IMG/VR virus record: IMGVR_UViG_3300032053_000050
Span: 7,803-71,802 of that record
Length of the DNA stretch: 64,000 bases
Source: a virus
Direction: 5' to 3' (one strand)
The position numbers and the translations under genes were made by a program. Below are positions 16,535 through 45,787 of this stretch, piece after piece. The notes under the pieces were generated by a model, which was not told where the DNA came from, searched no databases, and was given only the letters and a program-made list of their open reading frames with translations. Within the stretch, counting starts at the first letter, position 1. Each line of letters begins with the position of its first letter.

Positions 16535-17320
16535 TAAAATTACTATGAAAAAAATGGTAAATGAAAGTTTAAAAGATGAATTAATAGCACGATTAATGTC
16601 AACATTATTTAAAGATGATGATCCTAAACATTATGATTCAAATATTAAATATTTAGAATCATTATCTTTTGAAGATATAGAAGAAATGATAGTTGATTAT
16701 AATATGCATGGAATTACAATGAAATAATATAAGATGCAGCAACATTTTTTTCAAACATTTTTTGGTCCAGGAACGCAAATAGTGCAAAATGAAGATCCTG
16801 TTTTAGAATATATAATACATAATGAAACTATTTTAGAAATAGTAAATAATTGGCCGTTTGTAAGGTGGATGATGGATAGACATAGACACGGAGAATTAAA
16901 ACAAGTAGATCAAATGGAACAACTTTGGATTAATTTTATTTCTCGACACAATATTGATATAGAAAGTTTTAAAAATAATAAAGATTTTCTCAAAGTATTT
17001 TGGAAAAATCCTATAAATTAAAAAATTATGAAAAATAACGATTTTGTTCCAGTTAAAAAAATTCTGAATATTATTAATTCATGTAATTCCGAAGAACAAT
17101 TAGAAAATTGTAATATAGTAATTAAAAATTATGTTAATTCTGTAAAGAAAAAAGGGGTAATTAATTATAATGAATTAGAAAATAGATTAAATGAAGAACT
17201 ATTACAAAGACAAGAAGCTTTATATCTTGTTAAGATTTTTACTTAATTTAAAATTTTTTAACAAAGTATTAACATTCTCTTATAAAACTTTTATAATTTA
17301 TTGTGATATATAATTAAAAA

Positions 17321-17425
17321 ATGATGATATTAAATTATACATATACTCAACAACCCCAACTCATAACCTTTTATGAGCCACAATCATTATGTCTATTTGA
17401 GAACACGGAGGGAAGAATGAAGTAA
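17321..17425 (+). promoter_or_regulatory. Leader uORF (34 aa) of an attenuator-like element
   Basis: Contains ACGGAGGG (17405-17412), identical to the 3' arm of the downstream terminator. Confidence 0.45.
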
Positions 17426-17464
17426 GTATAAAGAATATCATACACTATATTTTAACACTTATTA

Positions 17465-17496
17465 AAAAAACCCTCCAATGAAACGGAGGGTTTTTT
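17465..17496 (+). terminator. Intrinsic terminator
   Basis: aaaaaaccctcc-aatgaaac-ggagggtttttt. Confidence 0.85.
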
Positions 17497-17932
17497 ATTT
17501 TTAATAATATTTTAACAACAACAGTTGTTAATAGTTCTTTGAAATGTTTATATTTGTAAAAACAATTTATTATGGCAAGTAGTATAAAAGGTACATCAGG
17601 TGAAAGTTTAGCAGACGTAGTAAGAAACGTAAACGATACTTTAAAAGCAGCAGGAAAATTTGGATTGGAAGTAGAAACTATTGCAACAGCTTTATTATTT
17701 CTTAAAGAAAATCCAACAATGACAATAGAATATGCATTACATGTAGGACTTCAAGATTGGGATGTATGACATCATTTTATTTTTATATACCAAAAGATAT
17801 ATCAACACCTTATATTATAGATGTTAATAAATCAGATGGAAGAAAAATAATAGAATGGTTAAATGGAAATACAACGTTTTATCATTTTTTACAAAAACAA
17901 AGATTTGGCAAGCTATATAATATAATACGGCA

Positions 17933-18118
17933 ATGATAAAACATTTAACGCCAAGGTCTAAAGAAGAATTAGATAAACTTCCGCCTTACGTAGAAATACT
18001 ATATGTTCCAGGATTACGAGGACCTTTTGGAATGCCAGGAAATAGAGGAACAGAAGGTCCAGTAGGAATTCCAGGAATAGAGAGTTATATTAGAAAAATG
18101 AAAACTTATAAAAAATAA
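17933..18118 (+). CDS. Small protein with IKHLTPR N-terminus and short collagen-like GXY run
   Basis: GLRGPFGMPGNRGTEGPVGIPG. Confidence 0.55.
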   Translation: MIKHLTPRSKEELDKLPPYVEILYVPGLRGPFGMPGNRGTEGPVGIPGIESYIRKMKTYKK

Positions 18119-18183
18119 ATGTAAAAACATTTTTTCGTGTCAAGAATTTATATTACTTTTACATTCCAATCAAAATAAAAATT

Positions 18184-18254
18184 GGCCATTATGCTCAATG
18201 GATGGGTACCGGTCTGCAAAACCGGAGTAGAGAGTTCGATCCTCTCAATGGCCT
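18184..18254 (+). tRNA. tRNA-Cys(GCA)
   Basis: Cloverleaf; ccggt-ctgcaaa-accgg. Confidence 0.9.
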
Positions 18255-18288
18255 CAGTTCTTTGATAAATTGTTTTAATAAAAAATAT

Positions 18289-18419
18289 GGGGGATAGCAA
18301 AGCAAATCACATTCTTCTTAGCTTTCCCAGCAATGTGGTGATTAGTAAGAATTACATCGCAAGGTAAAAATCAAATCTGAAATTTTGAAATCGCCGTTCA
18401 AATCGGTAATCCCCCACCA
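18289..18419 (+). ncRNA. Circularly permuted Y-like RNA with tRNA acceptor/T arm and encoded CCA
   Basis: GGGGGAT/ATCCCCC-A-CCA, T arm gccg-ttcaaat-cggt; interior holds the Y-stem strands in reversed order capped by GCAA. Confidence 0.7.
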
Positions 18420-18424
18420 ATAAT

Positions 18425-18494
18425 ACTTCTATGGTCTAACATTCATAGGACGCATCGGCCGATGTAATTTGGGTATGAAATCCCAATAGAGGTA
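18425..18494 (+). ncRNA. tRNA-like RNA lacking a normal anticodon loop
   Basis: acttcta/tagaggt acceptor, D arm, gcatc-ggcc-gatgt arm with 4-nt loop, ttggg/cccaa T arm. Confidence 0.5.
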
Positions 18495-18502
18495 AATTTT
18501 TA

Positions 18503-18583
18503 AAGTTGTAGTAAGGTAAATGAGTTACTTCGCCGAACCATTAAATTCAGTTAAAATGACACTCAAACCAAATTTCTCAACTT
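18503..18583 (+). ncRNA. Y-like RNA 1 (minimal)
   Basis: aagttg-tagtaa...tgagt-tacttcg...actca...aaatttct-caactt. Confidence 0.75.
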
Positions 18584-18588
18584 AATTT

Positions 18589-18661
18589 TGTTCTATGGTG
18601 TAACAGGAAACATATCTGCCTCTGAAGTAGAAGAGTATAGGTTCGAAGCCTATTAGAACAG
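18589..18661 (+). tRNA. tRNA-Gln(CTG)
   Basis: tctgc-ctctgaa-gtaga. Confidence 0.85.
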
Positions 18662-18682
18662 CGACTTTTTAACCTTTGAACT

Positions 18683-18755
18683 TGCCCTTTTATGTAATGG
18701 TTTAGCATATTAGTTTTTGAAGCTAAGAGTCAGAGTTCGAATCTCTGAAGGGCAG
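18683..18755 (+). tRNA. tRNA-Gln(TTG)
   Basis: ttagt-ttttgaa-gctaa. Confidence 0.85.
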
Positions 18756-18808
18756 CATGGTGCATAAAGGAGATATGCTTAAATGGGATTCAAATCACCA
18801 GCCATAAC

Positions 18809-18884
18809 GGAGTGATAACATAGATGGTCTGTGTGCCGGACTGAAAATTCGGAAGTGGTTTGGGATCGATACCCCCTCACTCCA
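18809..18884 (+). tRNA. tRNA-Phe(GAA)
   Basis: ccgga-ctgaaaa-ttcgg; atypical T loop. Confidence 0.75.
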
Positions 18885-18938
18885 CAAAGAAACATATATA
18901 GATTTTTGATATAATGTTCTTTGATATATTGATTTTTT

Positions 18939-19026
18939 CGGGATGTAGGTCCGTAGTCAGGTAGCGGTCCCGCCTTGGAAGCGGGTGGATATGATTCCCT
19001 CACAGGTTCGATTCCTGTTATCCCGA
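18939..19026 (+). tRNA. tRNA-Pro(TGG), long variable arm
   Basis: cccgc-cttggaa-gcggg. Confidence 0.85.
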
Positions 19027-19038
19027 CCCTCTAATATT

Positions 19039-19112
19039 GTCCGTGTAGGAAAATGGTAAACCGCTTGCCTTAGAAGCAAGATTTTTTATGGGTTCGAATC
19101 CCATCATGGACA
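19039..19112 (+). tRNA. tRNA-Leu(TAG), short variable loop
   Basis: cttgc-cttagaa-gcaag. Confidence 0.85.
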
Positions 19113-19133
19113 CAAAATAAACAGTTAGCTAAT

Positions 19134-19208
19134 GCTCCCATAGCCCAAATGGTAGAGGCAACAAGTTTAAGCCTTGTATAGGTATCGGTTCGAATCCGAT
19201 AGGGAGTA
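19134..19208 (+). tRNA. tRNA-Leu(TAA), short variable loop
   Basis: acaag-tttaagc-cttgt. Confidence 0.85.
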
Positions 19209-19221
19209 CAAAAAATAAATT

Positions 19222-19304
19222 GCCCAGATGATGAAACTGGTAACCATATCGGTCTAAGAAGCCGATGCCAATCTGGCTTAAGGGTTCGAGTCCCTTTTTG
19301 GGCA
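19222..19304 (+). tRNA. tRNA-Leu(AAG)
   Basis: tcggt-ctaagaa-gccga; long variable arm. Confidence 0.85.
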
Positions 19305-19352
19305 CAATTTAAACATATTGTTTAAATTAAATTAAAATAAATTAAGAATAAA

Positions 19353-19562
19353 ATGAGTGAAAAAACAACAAAATTGAACGGAACAGTTAAATTTTTTAAT
19401 TCAACAAAAGGCTTTGGCTTCATTAAGGATTACAATTCTACAAAAGAGTATTTTTGCCATGTAACTGGATGTATCGATACAATTAATGAAAATGATGAAG
19501 TAGAATTTGATTTAAAATCTGGCCTAAAGGGTGAAAATGCAATTAATGTAAAATTAATATAA
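19353..19562 (+). CDS. Cold-shock domain protein
   Basis: GTVKFFNSTKGFGFI...YFCHV...GENAINV. Confidence 0.9.
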   Translation: MSEKTTKLNGTVKFFNSTKGFGFIKDYNSTKEYFCHVTGCIDTINENDEVEFDLKSGLKGENAINVKLI

Positions 19563-19619
19563 TTCACGAATTGATAAAGGAGGTCAGGTGACTACGTCCG
19601 ATTAAACGATGTCACAAAT

Positions 19620-19688
19620 GGGATAGATTCTTTGGAGAAACCGGAACTGTAAATTCTCACCTAGTAGGTTCGATGCCTGCCTATCCCA
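19620..19688 (+). tRNA. tRNA-Tyr(GTA), compact atypical form
   Basis: gggatag/ctatccc; ggaa-ctgtaaa-ttct; reduced D arm. Confidence 0.65.
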
Positions 19689-19791
19689 CAAATATTTGAA
19701 ACAAGACTATACATTATAAAAAATAAAATTTTGGCACAAAGTAGATTGATATGGTAGTAACTACATGAGTGGCCACTCTACTACCAACAAT

Positions 19792-19866
19792 GGCCCGTTC
19801 GTCTAGATGGTTTAGGACATCGCCCCTTCAAAGCGAAGATCATGGATTCGAATTCCATACGGGCTA
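19792..19866 (+). tRNA. tRNA-Glu(TTC)
   Basis: Glu-type body GGCCCGTTCGTCTAG..GGTTTAGGAC; loop ccttcaa (C33). Confidence 0.8.
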
Positions 19867-20003
19867 CAAATTTTAGTAATTATGTTAAAACACACATGGA
19901 GAGGAATTATGTTATTTTTTTTGTTAATTCCTGCATTATTATTTTATCTATTATCTATATTTTTTATATGGCTATCAAAAAAAATATTTTAATAAATATA
20001 AAA

Positions 20004-20306
20004 ATGCAAGCATATAAATTATTCAGAATTCTTAAATCTGGTCATATTACATCTTTATTTATTAATAAATCAGAACATTTAAAAAGAAATGTTTGGATAG
20101 ATGCAAAAAGTTATCCAACAAAAGGTTTTAAAATAAGACCATATTGGCATTGTACAGAAAAACCTAATGCACCTCATTTAAGCATGAAAAATAGAGTATG
20201 GTTAAAAGTTGAAATGGAAAATTATGAAGAATTTATAAGACCAGAATATCAAGGTGGAAAATGGTTTTTAGCTAAAAAACTTAAAATATATAATAATATT
20301 ATTTAA
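20004..20306 (+). CDS. Hypothetical phage protein
   Basis: MQAYKLFR...RPYWHC...PHL. Confidence 0.55.
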   Translation: MQAYKLFRILKSGHITSLFINKSEHLKRNVWIDAKSYPTKGFKIRPYWHCTEKPNAPHLSMKNRVWLKVEMENYEEFIRPEYQGGKWFLAKKLKIYNNII

Positions 20307-20377
20307 AAAATATTTTTTTATATCAAAACTTTATATTATATTTGTACTATAAATAAAATATAGTTCTTTAACATATT

Positions 20378-21002
20378 AAGAGTGAGACAAAGAGTCAATA
20401 ACAATTATTTGCGTAAGTGAAGAAAGTGAGATTCGGCTTTCGAGGTAGCACTCGTAAAATCTACTAACGGCAGAAGTATAATAAAAGAGTTAAAGCTAGC
20501 AGAACACTCTATAAAACTTGACTTCGGATTTGGGTGACTATCCGCAAGGTGTCAATATGCAGATGAAACTGTATAACTGCAAGCACCCAGGCATTTAAGA
20601 AAAAACTTCGCATAAAATGAACATCTGCCAGTTGTTCAAAGTAATGTAAGAAGTCTCTGGAAAAAAGTAACTTGGCAGAGTGAAAGTGGAAGGAGTTTTA
20701 GTAGTAGTTTAATTGGCTAAAACACCGCGTGAAGTGGTAATATGGATTCGAATTCCATCTACTAACCAAAAAATCTGTTGAAGACAAACACTGGGTAACC
20801 AGGTCCACCAAGATTTGGACAGTTTATCGGATGATAGAGAGTGTTGAAACAAACAGCCAGAATCCTGGTTACAGGAGCGGTAATCTATTTAACTTGGTAA
20901 CAGATTTTTTACATAGCTCCTGTCAACGACAGAAAAAGTGTGAATCTATCTAAAATAGTACTTATAAAAGATAGAAAACCGATGAAAGATCGGCGGGAGC
21001 TA
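20378..21002 (+). ncRNA. Large multi-domain structured RNA (about 620 nt) with embedded tRNA-like element
   Basis: No + strand ORF, higher GC, follows promoter and boxA; helices gggtg/caccc, tgcag/ctgca, tctgcca/tggcaga, aaatctgtt/aacagattt, gtaaccagg/cctggttac, tagctcc/ggagcta. Confidence 0.65.
20698..20768 (+). ncRNA. tRNA-like module with non-canonical anticodon loop
   Basis: ttagtag/ctactaa-cca, D arm, accgc-gtgaa-gtggt, T arm atgga-ttcgaat-tccat. Confidence 0.65.
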
Positions 21003-26904: not shown

Positions 26905-26976
26905 TTGATTGTGGTAAAATTTGCGTTACTTCGAATTATGCAATTAGATTAATACGCAAATTAAATTTCCCAACAT
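26905..26976 (+). ncRNA. Y-like RNA 2 (minimal), upstream of the Ro60 locus
   Basis: ttg-tggtaa-aatttgcgt-tacttcg...acgcaaatt-aaatttcc-caa; covarying with other copies. Confidence 0.75.
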
Positions 26977-27701: not shown

Positions 27702-29417
27702 ATGGCAAAATTTAATGAAAAAAGAATTTCTAAATCAGAAGTAAAACCTGCATTAACTCATCAAGGCGGCGCAGGTCTTACACAAAAAAGTGAGCATGAA
27801 TTAATTGGAATTTTAGCTACGGGAATACAAAATACGTACTATGAAAAAGAAACAGAACGTGAAATACGTTTTAAAGAAGTTTTTGCAAAAGTTGCGCAAA
27901 AAAATGCATTATTCGCAGCAAAAGCTTTAATATATGCTCGTACTGTATTTGGTCAAAGAAGTGTAACTCATTATGGTGCTGTAGAAATTATACCATTTTT
28001 AAGTGGTAATGAAATAGCAAAAAAATTCTTTTCAAAAAGAGATAGAAAAGAAAATAAAGGAGGTATAGTTTATAGATTAGATGATATGGCTGAAATATTA
28101 GCATGTTATCAAGCTAAAAATGGAATTGATGCGCCTTTACCTAATGCTTTAAAAAAGGGATTTAAAGATGCTATAGAAAAAAGTGATGCATATCAGTTAG
28201 CAAAATACCAGATGAAGTCTCGTGGTGTAAGCCTTGTTGACATCGTTAACTTGGTTCGTCCTATACCTACTAAGATGAATGGAACCATTACTGTGACTGA
28301 AGAAGAATACCAGAAGGCTATCAAGGGAACTAAATTCGTTCCAGGACATAAGAAGTACAGAGCAGAATATGCAGAAATCCCTGTTCGTAATGAAAAAGGA
28401 ACTACTATTCCAGCACTTCATGCACTTGTTATCGGATTGCTTAAGCAGTTCAACACTGTTGAAGACAAGAACACCGAAGCAGGTAAGGTTGTAGCCGAAA
28501 AAGTTAAGAAGGGTGAAATCACTGCTGAACAGGCAACTGTTGAACTTAATGAAGCTAAGACTGACAACTATGTAGACCTTATTAAGACTAAGAAGATTGG
28601 GTACCTTGCATTACTTCGTAACGTACGTAACATTCTTAAGACCAATGATACTGCATTACTTGACATGGCTTGTGAACTTTTAGTTCAGAAGGACTTCATT
28701 GTTAAGTCACTTGTATGGCCTACTCAAATTGATGTAGCTTTAGAAATTATGACTCTTGAATTCTCTGGCGCGCAAATGGCAAAAGTTACTAAGGCTCTTG
28801 GACTCGCTTATGAATTAGCAATTCCTAATCTTGAACAACTTCTTCCAGAAGGTAAAACTGCAGTCGTATTCGATACTTCAGGTTCTATGGGAGGTGAGAA
28901 CCATATTTATCTTGATGCAAAAAAATCTATTAATAAAAAACCTGCTGATAAAGCTGCGCTTATAGCTGCAACTTTTGCCAAAGGAGTTAATGGAGATGTA
29001 TACCATTTTGGGTCTACTTCTGAACAAATTATAGGATGGAATCCAAATGATTCTGTTAATACTTTAAAACAGAAGTTTATGTCATATAACGGACGTTGTG
29101 GTCATGGAACAGACTTTGGAGCTTGCTTCAAATTATTTGAACACATGAATAAACAATATGATAGAATTATTCTTATTTCTGACGAACAAGATGGTTATGG
29201 AAATGTAGAAAGCAATTACAAAGGATATTGCCAAAAGTTTGGAACTCCATACGTGTATATCATAAACATATGTGGATATGCTGTAACTTCTCCTATAAAA
29301 AGTGGTGATAGAGTATTTCGTTTATACGGATACAATCAAGATTTATATGACAAAATAACTCAAATGGAAATAAATCCTCAGATTGTTATAGAAGAAATTA
29401 ACAAAATAGAAATTTAA
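27702..29417 (+). CDS. Ro60-like TROVE domain RNA-binding protein with C-terminal vWA
   Basis: YQLAKY, SLVDIVNL.RP, GYLALLRNVRNIL, VVFDTSGSM MIDAS, GTD, ILISDEQ. Confidence 0.9.
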   Translation: MAKFNEKRISKSEVKPALTHQGGAGLTQKSEHELIGILATGIQNTYYEKETEREIRFKEVFAKVAQKNALFAAKALIYARTVFGQRSVTHYGAVEIIPFLSGNEIAKKFFSKRDRKENKGGIVYRLDDMAEILACYQAKNGIDAPLPNALKKGFKDAIEKSDAYQLAKYQMKSRGVSLVDIVNLVRPIPTKMNGTITVTEEEYQKAIKGTKFVPGHKKYRAEYAEIPVRNEKGTTIPALHALVIGLLKQFNTVEDKNTEAGKVVAEKVKKGEITAEQATVELNEAKTDNYVDLIKTKKIGYLALLRNVRNILKTNDTALLDMACELLVQKDFIVKSLVWPTQIDVALEIMTLEFSGAQMAKVTKALGLAYELAIPNLEQLLPEGKTAVVFDTSGSMGGENHIYLDAKKSINKKPADKAALIAATFAKGVNGDVYHFGSTSEQIIGWNPNDSVNTLKQKFMSYNGRCGHGTDFGACFKLFEHMNKQYDRIILISDEQDGYGNVESNYKGYCQKFGTPYVYIINICGYAVTSPIKSGDRVFRLYGYNQDLYDKITQMEINPQIVIEEINKIEI

Positions 29418-29419
29418 TT

Positions 29420-30019
29420 TTAAAGGGAACCCAAAGTTCCCTTTATTTTTTTACCTTTGTTCCAAGGAACTCTTCCTTTCATGTTTTCACTCATTTTTTT
29501 GCGTGATTCTTTTGTATGATGTTTTCCATACATACCATTTTTTTCTCCTAAATTATTTATTTTATTTTTATTTCCTATTTTTCTTTTACATTCTTCAGAT
29601 CTAAGATGACCCTTACATCCTTTAACATTTATTAACTTTAATTTTTTTGTCATTTTTTCAATAGTTTCTTTACTGTAAATATTATGTTTTCCTTTATTCC
29701 ACGGTTCAACTCCGCGTGTTCCATTTCCGTATCCACTTTCAGAAATATTATAACCATTAGGATTAATTGTATTTTTTTCCTTTATCCAATATTCTTCTCG
29801 TTCATTTAATTGTTTTTCAGATACACAATATTCAATTATTTCTTTAATAAAAGTTTTTTTACTATATTTTTTTATAGCTTTATTTAATAATATCCCACTA
29901 CCAATATATTCATCTATTTCATCGTTTGACACATGTTGTCCCACATAACTTTTCCCTGTTATTAAATTTGTAGTAATATACACATACATATATTTAAAAA
30001 CTTTCTTTCGTTCTTTCAT
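29420..30019 (-). CDS. GIY-YIG homing endonuclease with NUMOD3 repeats
   Basis: YVYITTNLITGKSYVGQ, YIGSG, PNGYN, GMYGKHHTKES, PWNKG. Confidence 0.9.
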   Translation of the reverse strand: MKERKKVFKYMYVYITTNLITGKSYVGQHVSNDEIDEYIGSGILLNKAIKKYSKKTFIKEIIEYCVSEKQLNEREEYWIKEKNTINPNGYNISESGYGNGTRGVEPWNKGKHNIYSKETIEKMTKKLKLINVKGCKGHLRSEECKRKIGNKNKINNLGEKNGMYGKHHTKESRKKMSENMKGRVPWNKGKKIKGTLGSL

Positions 30020-36856: not shown

Positions 36857-37121
36857 TAACTGTAGTAAATTTTGTGATACTTCGTATCCTTGCCGAAAGG
36901 CGAAAACCCGTCGATGGATGTCGATATTTATACTATGTATTTATACTATGTAAACTAAGCAACGCCAAGGGTTTGAGGTCTTCGGACTAATAAAACTGAG
37001 TGTAAGAAGGCTCGTAGGACGAAAAAATAACTCCTATACTTACAAGGAAGGCTGGCAGAAATCCTTAAAATCTCCGGAGAGTTAACTCCTAAAAAACGCA
37101 CAAAATAATAATTCTCAGTTA
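36857..37121 (+). ncRNA. Y-like RNA 3 carrying a roughly 210-nt multi-helix insert
   Basis: taactg-tagtaa-attttgtg-atacttcg ... cacaaaat-aataattct-cagtta; internal gcc-GAAA-ggc and gtc-TTCG-gac hairpins; preceded by promoter and boxA. Confidence 0.75.
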
Positions 37122-41203: not shown

Positions 41204-41286
41204 CTAATTAGCTTAATAGTTAAACATTGGTGTGTATACCATTGATATCGTGGCAGAAGGTTCGATTCCTGACAACTATTATTTGC

Positions 41287-41451: not shown

Positions 41452-41589
41452 TAAACTGTAGTAAACTAGCGAGTTACTTCGTACTCAAACGATCAGAGAA
41501 AGTTCAATTCTTTCATCCAGCTCCAAATATTTGCTGGATTAGTGTAACGGTAGCACAATAAAAATACTCAAGGTAAATTTCTCAGTTTA
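41452..41589 (+). ncRNA. Y-like RNA 4, YrlA-type (Y stem plus permuted tRNA module)
   Basis: Y stem encloses T arm gaaag-ttcaatt-ctttc, loop-closed acceptor atccagc/gctggat, then D arm gtgt-aacggta-gcac. Confidence 0.85.
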
Positions 41590-43372: not shown

Positions 43373-43475
43373 AATCTGTAGTAAAATAAGAGTTACATCG
43401 TTGGTTAATCACTGGTTCGAATCCAGTATCAAGCGCAAAGCTTAGTATTCACACTCTTTTTGAATTTCTCAGATT
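43373..43475 (+). ncRNA. Y-like RNA 5 with T arm and mini acceptor hairpin
   Basis: aatctg-tagtaa...gagt-tacatcg; actgg-ttcgaat-ccagt; aagc-gcaaa-gctt; actc...aatttct-cagatt. Confidence 0.8.
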
Positions 43476-43597: not shown

Positions 43598-44134
43598 ATG
43601 ACACATATATGTAAATATTGTAATGCAGAATTTGATACAGGCCCGCATTTAGGCAATCATGTTAGAAGTTGTAAATTACATCCCAATCATGATGAAAGAA
43701 TTAGAAAAATTTCTGAAACATGGTTAGGAAAACATCATTCTGAAAAAACAAAAAAACAATTATCTAATTCTGGAAAATTGGCACATAAAGAAGGAAGAGC
43801 ATGGAATATAGGAATGAGCAGATGGAATAATGAAGCATCGTATCCTGAAAAATTCTTTATGAAAGTAATTGAAAATGAATTTGATGATAAAGAATATAAA
43901 AAAGAATACAATGTTGGAATTTACTCTCTTGATTTTGCATGGATTAATAAGAAAAAAGTTATAGAAATTGATGGCGATCAACACCAACATTTTGAAGAAT
44001 ATAAAGAAAGAGATAAAAGAAAAGACGCATATTTGATAAATGAAGGTTGGACAATTTTAAGAATACCTTGGAAAGATATGTGTGATAACACAAAAGAGCA
44101 AATTCAAATATGTAAGAATTTTATAATGGGGTAA
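43598..44134 (+). CDS. DUF559/Vsr-like endonuclease with Zn finger and NUMOD3
   Basis: YSLDFA, IEIDGDQH, RDKRKD..L...GWTILRI.W. Confidence 0.85.
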   Translation: MTHICKYCNAEFDTGPHLGNHVRSCKLHPNHDERIRKISETWLGKHHSEKTKKQLSNSGKLAHKEGRAWNIGMSRWNNEASYPEKFFMKVIENEFDDKEYKKEYNVGIYSLDFAWINKKKVIEIDGDQHQHFEEYKERDKRKDAYLINEGWTILRIPWKDMCDNTKEQIQICKNFIMG

Positions 44135-44277
44135 TAGCTCAATGGTAGAGCAATTGGCTGTACACAGATAGAAGTATCTGAAAAAATACTTTAGATGAAG
44201 TCTTATGAAGTTAAAGAATTCATAATTCTCTTCATCTACTAACCAATAGGTTCGGGGTTCGATACCCTGTTACCCCG
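44128..44277 (+). tRNA. tRNA-Asn(GTT) interrupted by a 78-nt insert in the anticodon loop
   Basis: ggggtaa/ttacccc-G; attggctgt [44162-44239] taaccaat. Confidence 0.7.
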
Positions 44278-45285: not shown

Positions 45286-45327
45286 CAATTTTAAGATATT
45301 AAAACGTGTCTTAGAAATAAGACTATT

Positions 45328-45535
45328 TATGAGAGACTGTTGACTGGACCCGGGGGCAGAATCCGGCATCTCCACTAATATAAAAATCTTTGGGGATGAT
45401 TTAGGTTTGACAGCAACATAGAAGTAGTAAAGATAGTTTTAATAACGCAAGTAAACGGCGAAAATAGTTACAAATTACAAATGGCGGCTTAGAGTCTTTA
45501 TTTGTAGGTGTAGGACCCTACCAAAGTGGGTCCAA
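45328..45535 (+). ncRNA. ssrA: Circularly permuted (two-piece) tmRNA
   Basis: Acceptor 3' piece ccggg-ggcagaa-tccgg-catctcc-a (ends 45374) lies upstream of GGGGATG..GGTTTGAC (45392); G3:U70; tag GENSYKLQMAA* at 45457-45492; outer ends approximate. Confidence 0.85.
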
Positions 45536-45629: not shown

Positions 45630-45703
45630 CCTCTGGTGGCATAATTGGTTGGCGCAGAAGTCTTATATACTTAAGGTTGTGGGTTCGAGTCCCACTCAGA
45701 GGA
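45630..45703 (+). tRNA. tRNA-Ile(TAT)
   Basis: aagt-cttatat-actt. Confidence 0.8.
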
Positions 45704-45712
45704 CAATTAATT

Positions 45713-45787
45713 GACCTGATAACTCAATTTGAATAGAGTAATAGCCTTCTAAGCTATAAGTTGTGAGTTTGAGTCTCACTCAGGTCA
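45713..45787 (+). tRNA. tRNA-Arg(TCT)
   Basis: atagc-cttctaa-gctat. Confidence 0.88.

What the first reader, a model, noticed from the sequence alone, without database searches (positions are those of the whole stretch)
18289..18419. Reverse-permuted Y RNA: tRNA-ended molecule with the Y stem in place of the anticodon arm
Seen: 7-bp acceptor GGGGGAU/AUCCCCC plus encoded ACCA and a T arm. Inside, the Y-stem 3' strand (AUUC...UUUCCCA, 18311-18329) comes before the 5' strand (UGUGGUGA...GAAUUACAUCG, 18334-18359), joined by a GCAA tetraloop. This is the topological inverse of YrlA, where the acceptor is closed by a loop and the Y stem has the free ends. Inference: an RNase P-processable, possibly aminoacylatable Ro60 ligand, or an evolutionary link between tRNA and YrlA. 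I am not aware of a described example.
Basis: partly seen in the sequence, partly recalled or inferred. Interest (0 to 1): 0.88.

Follow-up and report, generated by a model that had tools for sequence, protein, structure and literature searches.

The report
tRNA-shaped Y-like RNA in phage
A large uncultured phage encodes a CCA-ended, tRNA-shaped small RNA that carries, as an internal hairpin, the same conserved "handle" found on the small RNAs that travel with the phage's Ro60-like protein, so it is probably a re-wired partner RNA of that protein and not a normal tRNA.

Summary
Window 18289-18419 (+) has a perfect 7-bp acceptor stem, a T arm, an encoded ACCA, and an internal hairpin capped by GCAA.

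The two strands of that hairpin are the conserved "handle" (UGURGURA..GARUUACWUCG with UUUCYCA). In the same window (18503, 26910, 41453, 43373) and in many other phage contigs, this handle forms the free-ended stem of YrlA-like RNAs.

I found 27 distinct sequences of the same tRNA-order design in 47 loci. Covariation supports every helix: 23 of 30 pairs change on both sides, and 0 of 500 shuffles reach that.

In most homologs the handle lies inside a 4-bp D stem, as a D-loop insertion. A separate 5-bp/7-nt anticodon-like arm is kept at the canonical spacing.

The window copy is a deviant member. It has no D stem, an 8-nt loop, and one C.A in the T stem.

The handle is tied to Ro60-like (TROVE) genes. 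They occur in 21 of 47 handle-bearing records against 1 of 49 controls, and a handle RNA lies just upstream of the TROVE gene in 5 of 6 loci. Binding, processing and charging remain untested.

It matches neither Rfam YrlA nor tRNA. I found no paper describing it. This scan has noted similar unpermuted handle-tRNAs on other DNA.

The parts
18289..18295 (+). acceptor stem, 5' strand (GGGGGAU)
   Evidence: 7 of 7 standard pairs with 18409-18415. The acceptor helix covaries in homologs: 6 of 7 pairs change on both sides.
18296..18310 (+). linker (A8 G9 ...), no D stem in this copy
   Evidence: 0 of 4 pairs at the D-stem positions. A near relative in DNA run X2 has AAGUUU here and AAAC-G on the other side, which forms a D stem.
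18311..18352 (+). handle hairpin: P2 (18311-18316 with 18347-18352), internal loop, P1b (18326-18329 with 18334-18338, U18336 bulged), GCAA tetraloop 18330-18333
   Evidence: Same motif pair as the linear handles at 18507, 26910, 41457 and 43377. UGUGG/CCCA against UGUAG/CUCA is a compensatory change.
18353..18359 (+). conserved junction UACAUCG
   Evidence: Part of the family motif GARWUACWUCG. A 15-nt stretch is identical to relatives G001 and G005.
18360..18370 (+). linker CAAGGUAAAAA (homologous to AAGGUAAAAC-G of L147, where AAAC is the D-stem 3' strand)
18371..18388 (+). anticodon-arm-like hairpin: 5 bp, 8-nt loop UCUGAAAU
   Evidence: In homologs this helix has 5 of 5 pairs covarying. 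23 homologs have a 7-nt loop; 22 of them have U at loop position 2 and 23 have a purine at position 6.
18389..18391 (+). variable region, 3 nt (4-5 nt in most homologs)
18392..18408 (+). T arm with canonical loop UUCAAAU (4 pairs plus C.A)
   Evidence: In homologs 4 of 5 pairs covary.
18409..18419 (+). acceptor 3' strand AUCCCCC, discriminator A, encoded CCA
   Evidence: CCA is encoded in 18 of 27 distinct homologs against 14 of 70 ordinary tRNA-length hits from the same loci.
18503..18583 (+). neighbouring linear handle RNA without a tRNA body; it ends 5 nt before tRNA-Gln
26906..26975 (+). stand-alone handle RNA (UGUGG/CCCA type) about 730 nt upstream of the TROVE ORF, same strand, followed by a terminator-like hairpin
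   Evidence: The same arrangement is seen in L004/L008, L005 and L007.
27702..29417 (+). Ro60-like protein gene (TROVE + vWA, 571 aa)
   Evidence: Pfam TROVE 29.9 bits (cut-off 23); VWA_2 21 bits (below its cut-off of 27). Best solved relatives are 9KOP and 9L5Y, E 7.8e-10, which are the Thermus phage phiLo Ro60.
41453..41588 (+). YrlA-order (permuted) handle RNA: handle 5' strand, small hairpin, T arm, acceptor closed by a loop starting UCCA, D arm, handle 3' strand
43373..43475 (+). linear handle RNA carrying only a T arm and a short hairpin

Best explanation
The element is a gene for a roughly 131-nt tRNA-shaped RNA. It belongs to a large, undescribed family of 'handle-tagged' small RNAs in phage tRNA arrays.

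The handle is a conserved two-helix hairpin with a bulged U. I infer that it is the docking site for the phage's own Ro60-like (TROVE + vWA) protein. That would make the RNA a Y-RNA-like partner built on an unpermuted tRNA body.

It is most likely transcribed with the tRNA array. RNase P would cut it out at G18289, and 3' trimming would end it at the encoded CCA. This gives a molecule with free acceptor ends, whereas YrlA has a closed acceptor.

In the family the handle is grafted into the D loop or D arm. An anticodon-like arm is kept, so the body can still be recognised by tRNA-binding proteins. The handle would then tether Ro60 to them, or tether them to Ro60.

Shown: the structure, the family, the covariation, the CCA enrichment and the TROVE association. 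Inferred: processing, Ro60 binding and function.
For: Structure in the window.

Homology of the hairpin to linear handles:
- 15 nt identical to the YrlA-order RNAs of relatives G001 and G005.
- The same motif occurs at 18507, 41457 and 43377 and at 26910.
- 74 linear members, 43 unique, in fetched loci.

The tRNA-order design recurs. There are 48 hits of 110 nt or more in 47 loci, giving 27 distinct sequences. These include the window's relatives G002 and G004.

Covariation on 24 distinct sequences, window not among them:
- 97.7% of cells paired against 83.0% in shuffles (0 of 500 reach it).
- 23 of 30 pairs change on both sides, against 11.7 expected (0 of 500).
- Slid controls give 8 or fewer.

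CCA is encoded in 18 of 27 against 14 of 70 ordinary tRNA-length hits (Fisher 2.5e-5).

TROVE link:
- 21 of 47 handle-bearing records have a TROVE match, though most are 15% complete or less. Of the 7 records at least 33% complete, 6 have one.
- 1 of 49 control records has one (Fisher 2.5e-7).
- A handle RNA lies 450-1000 nt upstream of the TROVE ORF on the same strand in 5 of 6 loci examined.

Precedents, read as passages:
- M. smegmatis YrlA is cut by RNase P, receives CCA and stays bound to Rsr (PMC4201824).
- Phage phiLo Ro60 binds two Y-like RNAs encoded upstream of its gene (PMC12135203).

Two metatranscriptome contigs cover the element with 2 differences in 96 nt, against 13 differences plus 3 gaps in the next 141 nt. 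This is a weak hint only.
Against: - No binding, processing or expression end-points were measured. Contigs from RNA libraries may derive from DNA.
- The handle lacks the YrlA motif GNCGAAN0-1G. RF02553 matches neither this element nor the window's YrlA-order copy.
- The element is 9.3 kb from the TROVE gene, not within 4 kb.
- The window copy is the least canonical member: no D stem, A8 G9, an 8-nt loop, a 3-nt variable region and C.A in the T stem. It scores only 48.3 bits, in the range of ordinary tRNAs under the same model.
- The closest complete relative, G005, has only a truncated remnant of this design.
- 26 of 47 handle-bearing records show no TROVE gene; most are small fragments, but G029 at 78% complete also lacks one.
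Confidence: 0.55

Rival explanations
1. It is a working, decoding tRNA (Phe-like here; Met, Ile, Asp or Tyr in homologs) that merely tolerates a large D-loop expansion.
For: - Cloverleaf connectors of 2, 1, 4-5 and 0 nt, and a 5-bp/7-nt arm in most homologs.
- 23 homologs have a 7-nt loop; 22 have U at loop position 2 and 23 have a purine at position 6.
- The discriminator tracks the anticodon: GUC with G in 2 of 2; CAU with A in 12 of 13; GAU and GUA with A. The identity rules themselves are recalled, not tested.
- CCA is enriched.
- ARAGORN finds no tRNA-Phe in the window.
Against: - Position 8 is A, not U, in 23 of 27 rows, and no G18-G19 is present.
- 13 of 27 T loops read UGAAA, not UUCAA.
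- The loop is 8 nt in the window and in L147 and L271, and also in L276 by my own parse.
- The 51-71-nt insertion sits at the elbow.
- G002 and G004 carry an ordinary tRNA-Tyr(GUA) in the same array as their GUA-type copy.
- The same handle exists as stand-alone RNAs next to the TROVE gene.
Confidence: 0.12
2. The window copy is a decaying, non-functional relic of a handle-tRNA.
For: - It has lost both strands of the D stem that a near relative keeps.
- It has a T-stem mismatch, a short variable region and an 8-nt loop.
- G001 and G005 hold only a truncated version.
Against: - The 7 of 7 acceptor pairs, the P1b compensatory change (UGUGG/CCCA), the GNRA cap and the canonical T loop are all intact.
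- The G002 and G004 copies also lack a D stem but keep everything else.
- The sequence is identical on a second contig.
- It is 98% identical in two RNA-library contigs whose flanks are about 89% identical.
Confidence: 0.15
3. The family is real, but the handle serves another partner or purpose, such as a processing signal, another phage protein or RNA stability, and not Ro60.
For: - No GNCGAA or CGAA motif is conserved.
- Most copies lie in tRNA arrays far from the TROVE gene.
- 26 of 47 records show no TROVE gene.
Against: - TROVE genes occur in 21 of 47 handle records against 1 of 49 controls.
- A handle RNA lies directly upstream of the TROVE gene in 5 of 6 loci.
- 6 of the 7 records that are at least 33% complete have a TROVE gene.
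Confidence: 0.13
4. The handle is an intron-like insert that is removed to give a normal tRNA.
For: Another tRNA in the window carries a short insert of about 77 nt in its anticodon loop. Other phage tRNAs in the fetched loci have D-loop inserts of a different kind.
Against: - Removing the hairpin does not restore a D loop, because no GG is left.
- The handle is a conserved unit that also exists on its own and as the terminal stem of permuted forms.
- No RtcB gene was found in G000, G005 or G008.
Confidence: 0.03

Closest known systems
YrlA (Y RNA-like A; Rfam RF02553; Chen et al. 2014, PMC4201824, passages read; Wang et al. 2018, bioRxiv 10.1101/312249, passages read), especially M. smegmatis YrlA
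   Same: A tRNA-like body is joined to a stem thought to bind Ro60/Rsr, and a Ro60 gene is encoded by the same genome. M. smegmatis YrlA has a 7-bp acceptor, is cut by RNase P and gains CCA, so a free acceptor end on a Y RNA has a precedent.
   Different: - The topology is unpermuted: free acceptor ends are encoded, and the handle is closed by a tetraloop.
- The handle sequence differs (no GNCGAAN0-1G).
- In YrlA the Y stem takes the place of the anticodon stem. Here the handle sits in the D loop or D arm, and an anticodon-like arm is kept.
- The D arm and the D/T elbow are not conserved.
- The element is 9.3 kb from the Ro60 gene.
- There is no match to RF02553.
Thermus phage phiLo Ro60 with Yrl1/Yrl2 (PMC12135203, passages read; PDB 9KOP, 9L5Y)
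   Same: The closest solved relative of the window's TROVE protein (E 7.8e-10). It is a phage Ro60 that binds stem-bulge-stem RNAs encoded upstream of its gene, like the handle RNA at 26906-26975.
   Different: Yrl1 and Yrl2 were picked by a CGAA motif and are not described as tRNA-shaped. Nothing there is tRNA-ordered or CCA-ended.
tRNA (Rfam RF00005)
   Same: Acceptor stem, T arm with UUCAAAU, discriminator plus CCA, location in a tRNA array. In homologs there is a full cloverleaf with canonical connectors.
   Different: Not called by ARAGORN or Rfam. No U8, no G18-G19, no D stem in this copy, an 8-nt loop, and a hairpin of about 42 nt plus linkers at the D position.
Circularly permuted RNA genes: two-piece tmRNA (RF04321; one at 45321-45492 of this window) and permuted tRNA genes of Cyanidioschyzon merolae (recalled, not read)
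   Same: One RNA design is encoded in two circular orders. The window holds both orders of the handle-tRNA design (41453-41588 and 18289-18419).
   Different: Those are true tmRNAs or tRNAs that act in translation. Here the two orders also differ in where the handle is grafted.

Membership tests
YrlA (RF02553) | match to the Rfam covariance model | tested here: not met
   No RF02553 match at E up to 10 on 18100-18620. The only own-genome hit is 26.8 bits (gathering score 69), across two tandem tRNAs at window 45651-45770. The YrlA-order copies are not matched either.
YrlA (RF02553) | GNCGAAN0-1G motif near the 5' end (PMC4201824) | tested here: not met
   Absent from 18289-18419. Only UCG is conserved in the family junction GARWUACWUCG.
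YrlA (RF02553) | termini in the Ro-binding stem, acceptor-like stem closed by a loop, no free CCA | tested here: not met
   The reverse holds here: the acceptor is open with an encoded ACCA, and the handle is closed by GCAA.
YrlA (RF02553) | conserved T and D stem-loops forming the tRNA elbow | tested here: not met
   A T arm is present. There is no D stem-loop in this copy. In homologs the D stem encloses the handle and no GG loop is present.
YrlA (RF02553) | within 4 kb of the Ro60 gene on the same strand | tested here: not met
   Same strand, but 9.3 kb upstream of 27702-29417. Another handle RNA (26906-26975) does meet this criterion.
YrlA / Y RNA (functional class) | bound by Ro60/Rsr | not testable with these tools
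   Only association is available: TROVE genes in 21 of 47 handle records against 1 of 49 controls, and synteny in 5 of 6 loci.
tRNA (RF00005) | recognised by tRNA models and finders | tested here: not met
   ARAGORN and Rfam call nothing at 18289-18419.
tRNA (RF00005) | 7-bp acceptor, T arm, discriminator | tested here: met
tRNA (RF00005) | D arm with U8 and G18-G19, and a 7-nt anticodon loop | tested here: not met
   A8 G9, 0 of 4 D-stem pairs, 8-nt loop.
handle-tagged tRNA-order RNAs (family defined here, model R1) | end-to-end match to model R1, which was built without the window | tested here: met
   48.3 bits, rough E 1.3e-7, model positions 1-123. However, the model misaligns the window's small hairpin, and ordinary tRNAs score 27-52 bits under the same model.
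handle-tagged tRNA-order RNAs (family defined here, model R1) | handle motif in reversed strand order (UUUCYCA, short cap, UGURGURA .. GARWUACWUCG) between the acceptor 5' strand and the small hairpin | tested here: met
tmRNA | G3.U70 and a tag reading frame | tested here: not met
   The third acceptor pair is G-C. ARAGORN finds the window's tmRNA elsewhere.

The most novel reading that the evidence does not exclude
Handle-tRNAs may be chargeable Y RNAs. They would be isotype-specific tRNA bodies (Met-, Ile-, Asp-, Tyr- and Phe-like, with matching discriminators and encoded CCA) that carry a Ro60 docking hairpin at the elbow. They could bring the phage Ro60 ring to synthetases, EF-Tu or ribosomes. 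Alternatively they could act as decoys or sensors for host anticodon nucleases, coupled to Ro60-based RNA surveillance.
Probability: 0.15. Interest if true: 0.85.

Novelty: new variant of a known kind. Interest (0 to 1): 0.62.

Why it matters
All described Y RNAs with a tRNA-like domain are closed, permuted mimics without a free CCA end. Only M. smegmatis YrlA is opened, and that happens after transcription.

Here a phage lineage encodes the opened form directly, next to permuted forms and body-less forms that carry the same handle. The bodies also keep anticodon-like loops and matching discriminators.

If the handle binds the phage Ro60, this gives a natural series of constructs. They could be used to ask what the tRNA half of a Y RNA is for: stability, recruitment of tRNA enzymes, or decoy. 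They could also show how phages use Ro60 during infection.

The finding also adds an RNA family of dozens of members that is missing from Rfam and that tRNA finders miss or mis-call. One example is an 86-nt 'tRNA-Phe' call inside a linear handle RNA.

Tried and rejected
- Direct similarity searches with the 131-nt element found nothing useful. nhmmer on the five TROVE loci gave no hit. blastn of 17000-21000 against 50,697 phage records gave only tRNA-sized matches in 18 records. An exact 24-base search in IMG/VR gave 0.
- The 15-base exact search gave 99 stretches. Only those from G001 and G005 were real; the rest were chance matches, mostly in coding DNA.
- MAFFT alone misaligned the arms, so I used a covariance-model alignment. 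That alignment leans toward the model's structure.
- Thermodynamic folds of the parts are weak in this AU-rich RNA. The handle hairpin has z = -2.0 and the small hairpin z = -1.0. The G002 copy has z = -1.3 and the MFE does not recover its cloverleaf. The case therefore rests on comparative evidence.
- I considered a K-turn, a loop-E (AGUA/GAA) motif, BHB splice sites and small ribozyme cores for the handle. This was by eye only, and none is claimed.
- RtcB and a CCA-adding enzyme were not found in G000 (18% complete). RtcB was not found in complete G005 or G008.
- The promoter/terminator scan of 17400-19400 was no better than shuffles.
- R1 on whole G005 and G008 listed only ordinary tRNAs.
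- Runs: X9 and X11 are Logan contigs, so no RNA ends, strand or level can be read. The parts they do not cover mean nothing.
- Literature searches that found no description. Supplements were not opened, and the supplementary YrlA lists of Chen 2014 (22 phages) might bear on this.

Full report
CONTEXT

The window is positions 7803-71802 of a 71.8-kb IMG/VR virus record, estimated 18% complete. Relatives include a 405-kb genome with terminal repeats, so this is a fragment of a very large phage.

The window holds two tRNA arrays. ARAGORN finds 26 genes, including a permuted tmRNA. At 27702-29417 lies a 571-aa ORF with a TROVE domain (29.9 bits, cut-off 23) and a weak vWA match (21 bits, cut-off 27). 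Its best solved relatives are 9KOP and 9L5Y (E 7.8e-10). These are the Ro60 of Thermus phage phiLo, which binds two Y-like RNAs encoded upstream of its gene (PMC12135203, passages read).

THE OBSERVATION

- a 7 of 7 acceptor stem (18289-18295 with 18409-18415);
- A plus CCA (18416-18419);
- a T arm with the canonical loop UUCAAAU (4 pairs plus C.A);
- a long internal hairpin whose strands are AUUCUU..UUUCCCA and UGUGGUGA..AAGAAUUACAUCG, joined by GCAA.

There is also a 5-bp hairpin with an 8-nt loop (18371-18388), 3 nt before the T arm.

The whole element folds better than all 200 shuffles (z = -2.85), and the centroid keeps the acceptor, the T arm and the small hairpin. No tRNA finder or Rfam family matches it.

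WHAT THE HAIRPIN IS

A 15-nt stretch of the hairpin is identical in relatives G001 and G005. There it belongs to an RNA lying between tRNA-Lys and tRNA-Gly. The order in that RNA is: stem 5' strand, T arm, acceptor 3' strand plus GCCA, an 11-nt spacer, acceptor 5' strand, D arm, stem 3' strand. This is the YrlA topology.

The motif pair UGURGURA..GARUUACWUCG with UUUCYCA recurs in the window at 18507, 41457 and 43377, at 26910 and at about 36860.

Among the fetched loci I counted 74 linear copies, 43 of them unique. Their interiors range from a bare loop, through a T arm alone, to a full tRNA-like body. I call this shared unit the handle. It consists of:
- a terminal helix;
- a conserved helix P1b, UG(U)AG with CUCA, carrying a bulged U;
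- an internal loop;
- a second helix P2, ending GAGU with ACUC.

Compensatory variants are seen: UGUGG/CCCA (window 18334 and 26910), CA(U)AG/CUUG (G002, L214), and GAAU/AUUC or GAAA/UUUC in place of GAGU/ACUC.

In the finding the two handle strands come in the reverse order, and a GNRA tetraloop replaces the terminal helix.

THE tRNA-ORDER DESIGN IS A FAMILY

Pattern scans of IMG/VR (18 stretches) and of metagenome contigs (34 stretches) recovered many elements built like the finding. So did a covariance model built from seven homologs without the window (R1).

R1 gave 48 hits of at least 110 nt in 47 loci, which are 27 distinct sequences. The two collections overlap, so loci are not all independent. 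One contig (L264) carries a copy identical to the window element. The window's relatives G002 and G004 have copies at the head of the same array. G001 and G005 have only a truncated 5' part.

On the 24 distinct sequences scoring above 56 bits, with the window not among them:
- 97.7% of cells are paired, against 83.0% in shuffles (0 of 500 shuffles reach it);
- 23 of 30 pairs change on both sides, against 11.7 +/- 1.6 (0 of 500);
- sliding the partners by 1-3 columns gives at most 8 such pairs.

Every helix covaries: acceptor 6 of 7 pairs, D stem 3 of 4, P2 3 of 5, P1b 2 of 4, small hairpin 5 of 5, T arm 4 of 5. The caveat is that this alignment was fitted to the model's structure.

CORRECTED ANATOMY

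In 22 of 26 distinct homologs a 4-bp stem (AUUC/GAAU or GUUU/AAAC) occupies tRNA positions 10-13 and 22-25 and encloses the handle. One nucleotide follows (usually G), then a 5-bp stem, 4-5 nt, the T arm and the acceptor.

The connectors of 2, 1, 4-5 and 0 nt are those of a cloverleaf. The handle is therefore a D-loop insertion of 51-71 nt, and the small hairpin stands where the anticodon arm stands.

23 homologs have a 7-nt loop. In 22 of them position 2 is U, and in all 23 position 6 is a purine. The loops read CAU (13 rows), GAU (2), GUC (2), GUA (2), AAC (1) or contain UGAAA (7 rows, window included). The discriminator follows them: G with GUC in 2 of 2, and A with CAU in 12 of 13. That these match bacterial identity rules is my recollection, not a test.

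The model R1 also matches ordinary tRNAs end to end at 27-52 bits, which confirms that the skeleton is a cloverleaf.

The title claim 'Y stem in place of the anticodon arm' is therefore not supported. It also differs from YrlA, where the Y stem is the anticodon stem (bioRxiv 10.1101/312249, passages read).

The window's YrlA-order copy (41453-41588) has an intact D arm with the handle after it. The two orders are therefore not exact circular permutations of one another.

THE WINDOW COPY IS DEVIANT

It has A8 G9, no D stem (0 of 4 pairs), an 8-nt loop, a 3-nt variable region and one T-stem mismatch.

A contig of a near relative in DNA run X2 reads AAGUUU after the acceptor. On the other side it reads AAAC-G, a 5-bp stem, a 7-nt loop and 5 variable nt. 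The D stem was therefore lost recently.

The G002 and G004 copies also lack a D stem but keep the rest. L147 and L271 also have 8-nt loops containing UGAAA, and so does L276 by my own parse; L268, a near copy of L147, has 7 nt.

LINK TO Ro60

A TROVE match (E at most 0.001) occurs in 21 of 47 handle-bearing IMG/VR records (13 over the Pfam cut-off), although most are at most 15% complete. Of the 7 records at least 33% complete, 6 have one.

In 49 control records, taken from the chance hits, 1 has a TROVE match (Fisher 2.5e-7).

A stand-alone handle RNA lies 450-1000 nt upstream of the TROVE ORF on the same strand in the window, L004, L008 (same sequence as L004), L005 and L007. My pattern did not find one in L006.

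This mirrors the Y RNA/Ro60 gene arrangement described for bacteria (PMC4201824) and for phiLo.

The handle is nevertheless not YrlA by sequence. It has no GNCGAAN0-1G motif. There is no RF02553 match for either topology, even at E up to 10 in a 161-base search.

ENDS

CCA is encoded in 18 of 27 distinct tRNA-order copies, against 14 of 70 distinct ordinary tRNA-length hits from the same loci (Fisher 2.5e-5). Many permuted copies start their acceptor loop with NCCA.

M. smegmatis YrlA is cut by RNase P and receives CCA in vivo (PMC4201824). I therefore infer that both gene orders give CCA-ended molecules.

The element sits between tRNA-Cys and further array members. No promoter or terminator signal rises above chance.

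Two metatranscriptome assemblies hold contigs over 18310-18502 and 18325-18420. The second is joined directly to 18501, skipping an 80-nt tRNA-like spacer. They show 2 differences inside the element. Contigs cannot show RNA ends, and DNA carry-over is possible.

VERDICT

This is a real, conserved, structured RNA of a family that I did not find in Rfam 15 or in the papers searched. The best reading is an unpermuted, CCA-ended, tRNA-shaped partner RNA of the phage Ro60-like protein (confidence 0.55).

Rival readings are a working tRNA, a decaying copy, a handle with another partner, and an intron. Their odds are given separately.

Earlier notes of this scan describe the handle family in this window. 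They also describe unpermuted handle-tRNAs on other DNA with other handle types. I used them as leads only.

Noticed in passing
window 18426-18491 (+): Another tRNA-like element between the finding and the next handle RNA. It has a 7-bp acceptor (CUUCUAU/AUAGAGG), a possible D stem, a stem closed by a 4-nt loop where the anticodon loop should be, and a T-arm-like hairpin. No tool calls it. An RNA-library contig of a relative skips 18421-18500 entirely.
   Followed up: partly
window 44128-44277 (+): Rfam matches a tRNA over 150 nt. An insert of about 77 nt sits in the anticodon loop of an otherwise normal tRNA, far too short for a group I intron.
   Followed up: no
window 41215-41280 (+): Between tRNA-Lys and tRNA-Gly, where G005 has its YrlA-order handle RNA, the window has a 66-nt element. 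It has a 7-bp AU-rich acceptor (AAUAGUU/AACUAUU), no D arm and a T-loop-like GGUUCGAUUCC.
   Followed up: no
L004 4519-4592, L005 8952-9027, L006 4372-4445, L008 4519-4592: Relatives carry a tRNA with anticodon CUA (ARAGORN 'tRNA-Pyl') a few kb upstream of the TROVE gene. This could be a suppressor tRNA and might indicate TAG recoding.
   Followed up: no
L272 10617-10717 (-), L258 2585-2689 (-): Initiator-like tRNAs (CGCGGGG acceptor, CUCAUAA loop) carry a different hairpin of about 30 nt inserted in the D loop. D-loop insertions therefore occur beyond the handle family.
   Followed up: no
L007 2640-2760 (+): ARAGORN's 86-nt 'tRNA-Phe(gaa)' lies inside a linear handle RNA. The order is handle 5' strand, a CGCAA-GGUAAA linker like that of the window element, a GAA-containing hairpin, a second hairpin, a T arm and the handle 3' strand.
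   Followed up: partly
window 36857-37121 (+): A handle (CUGUAGUAA .. UUCUCAGUU) encloses about 210 nt of structured RNA that contains a 13-nt tandem duplication.
   Followed up: no
window 29420-30019 (-): A GIY-YIG plus NUMOD3 homing-endonuclease-like ORF lies directly after the TROVE gene on the opposite strand.
   Followed up: no
window 45651-45770 (+): The only own-genome RF02553 hit (26.8 bits) runs from the T arm of one tRNA across the spacer into the D arm of the next. This shows how tandem tRNAs mimic the YrlA order.
   Followed up: yes
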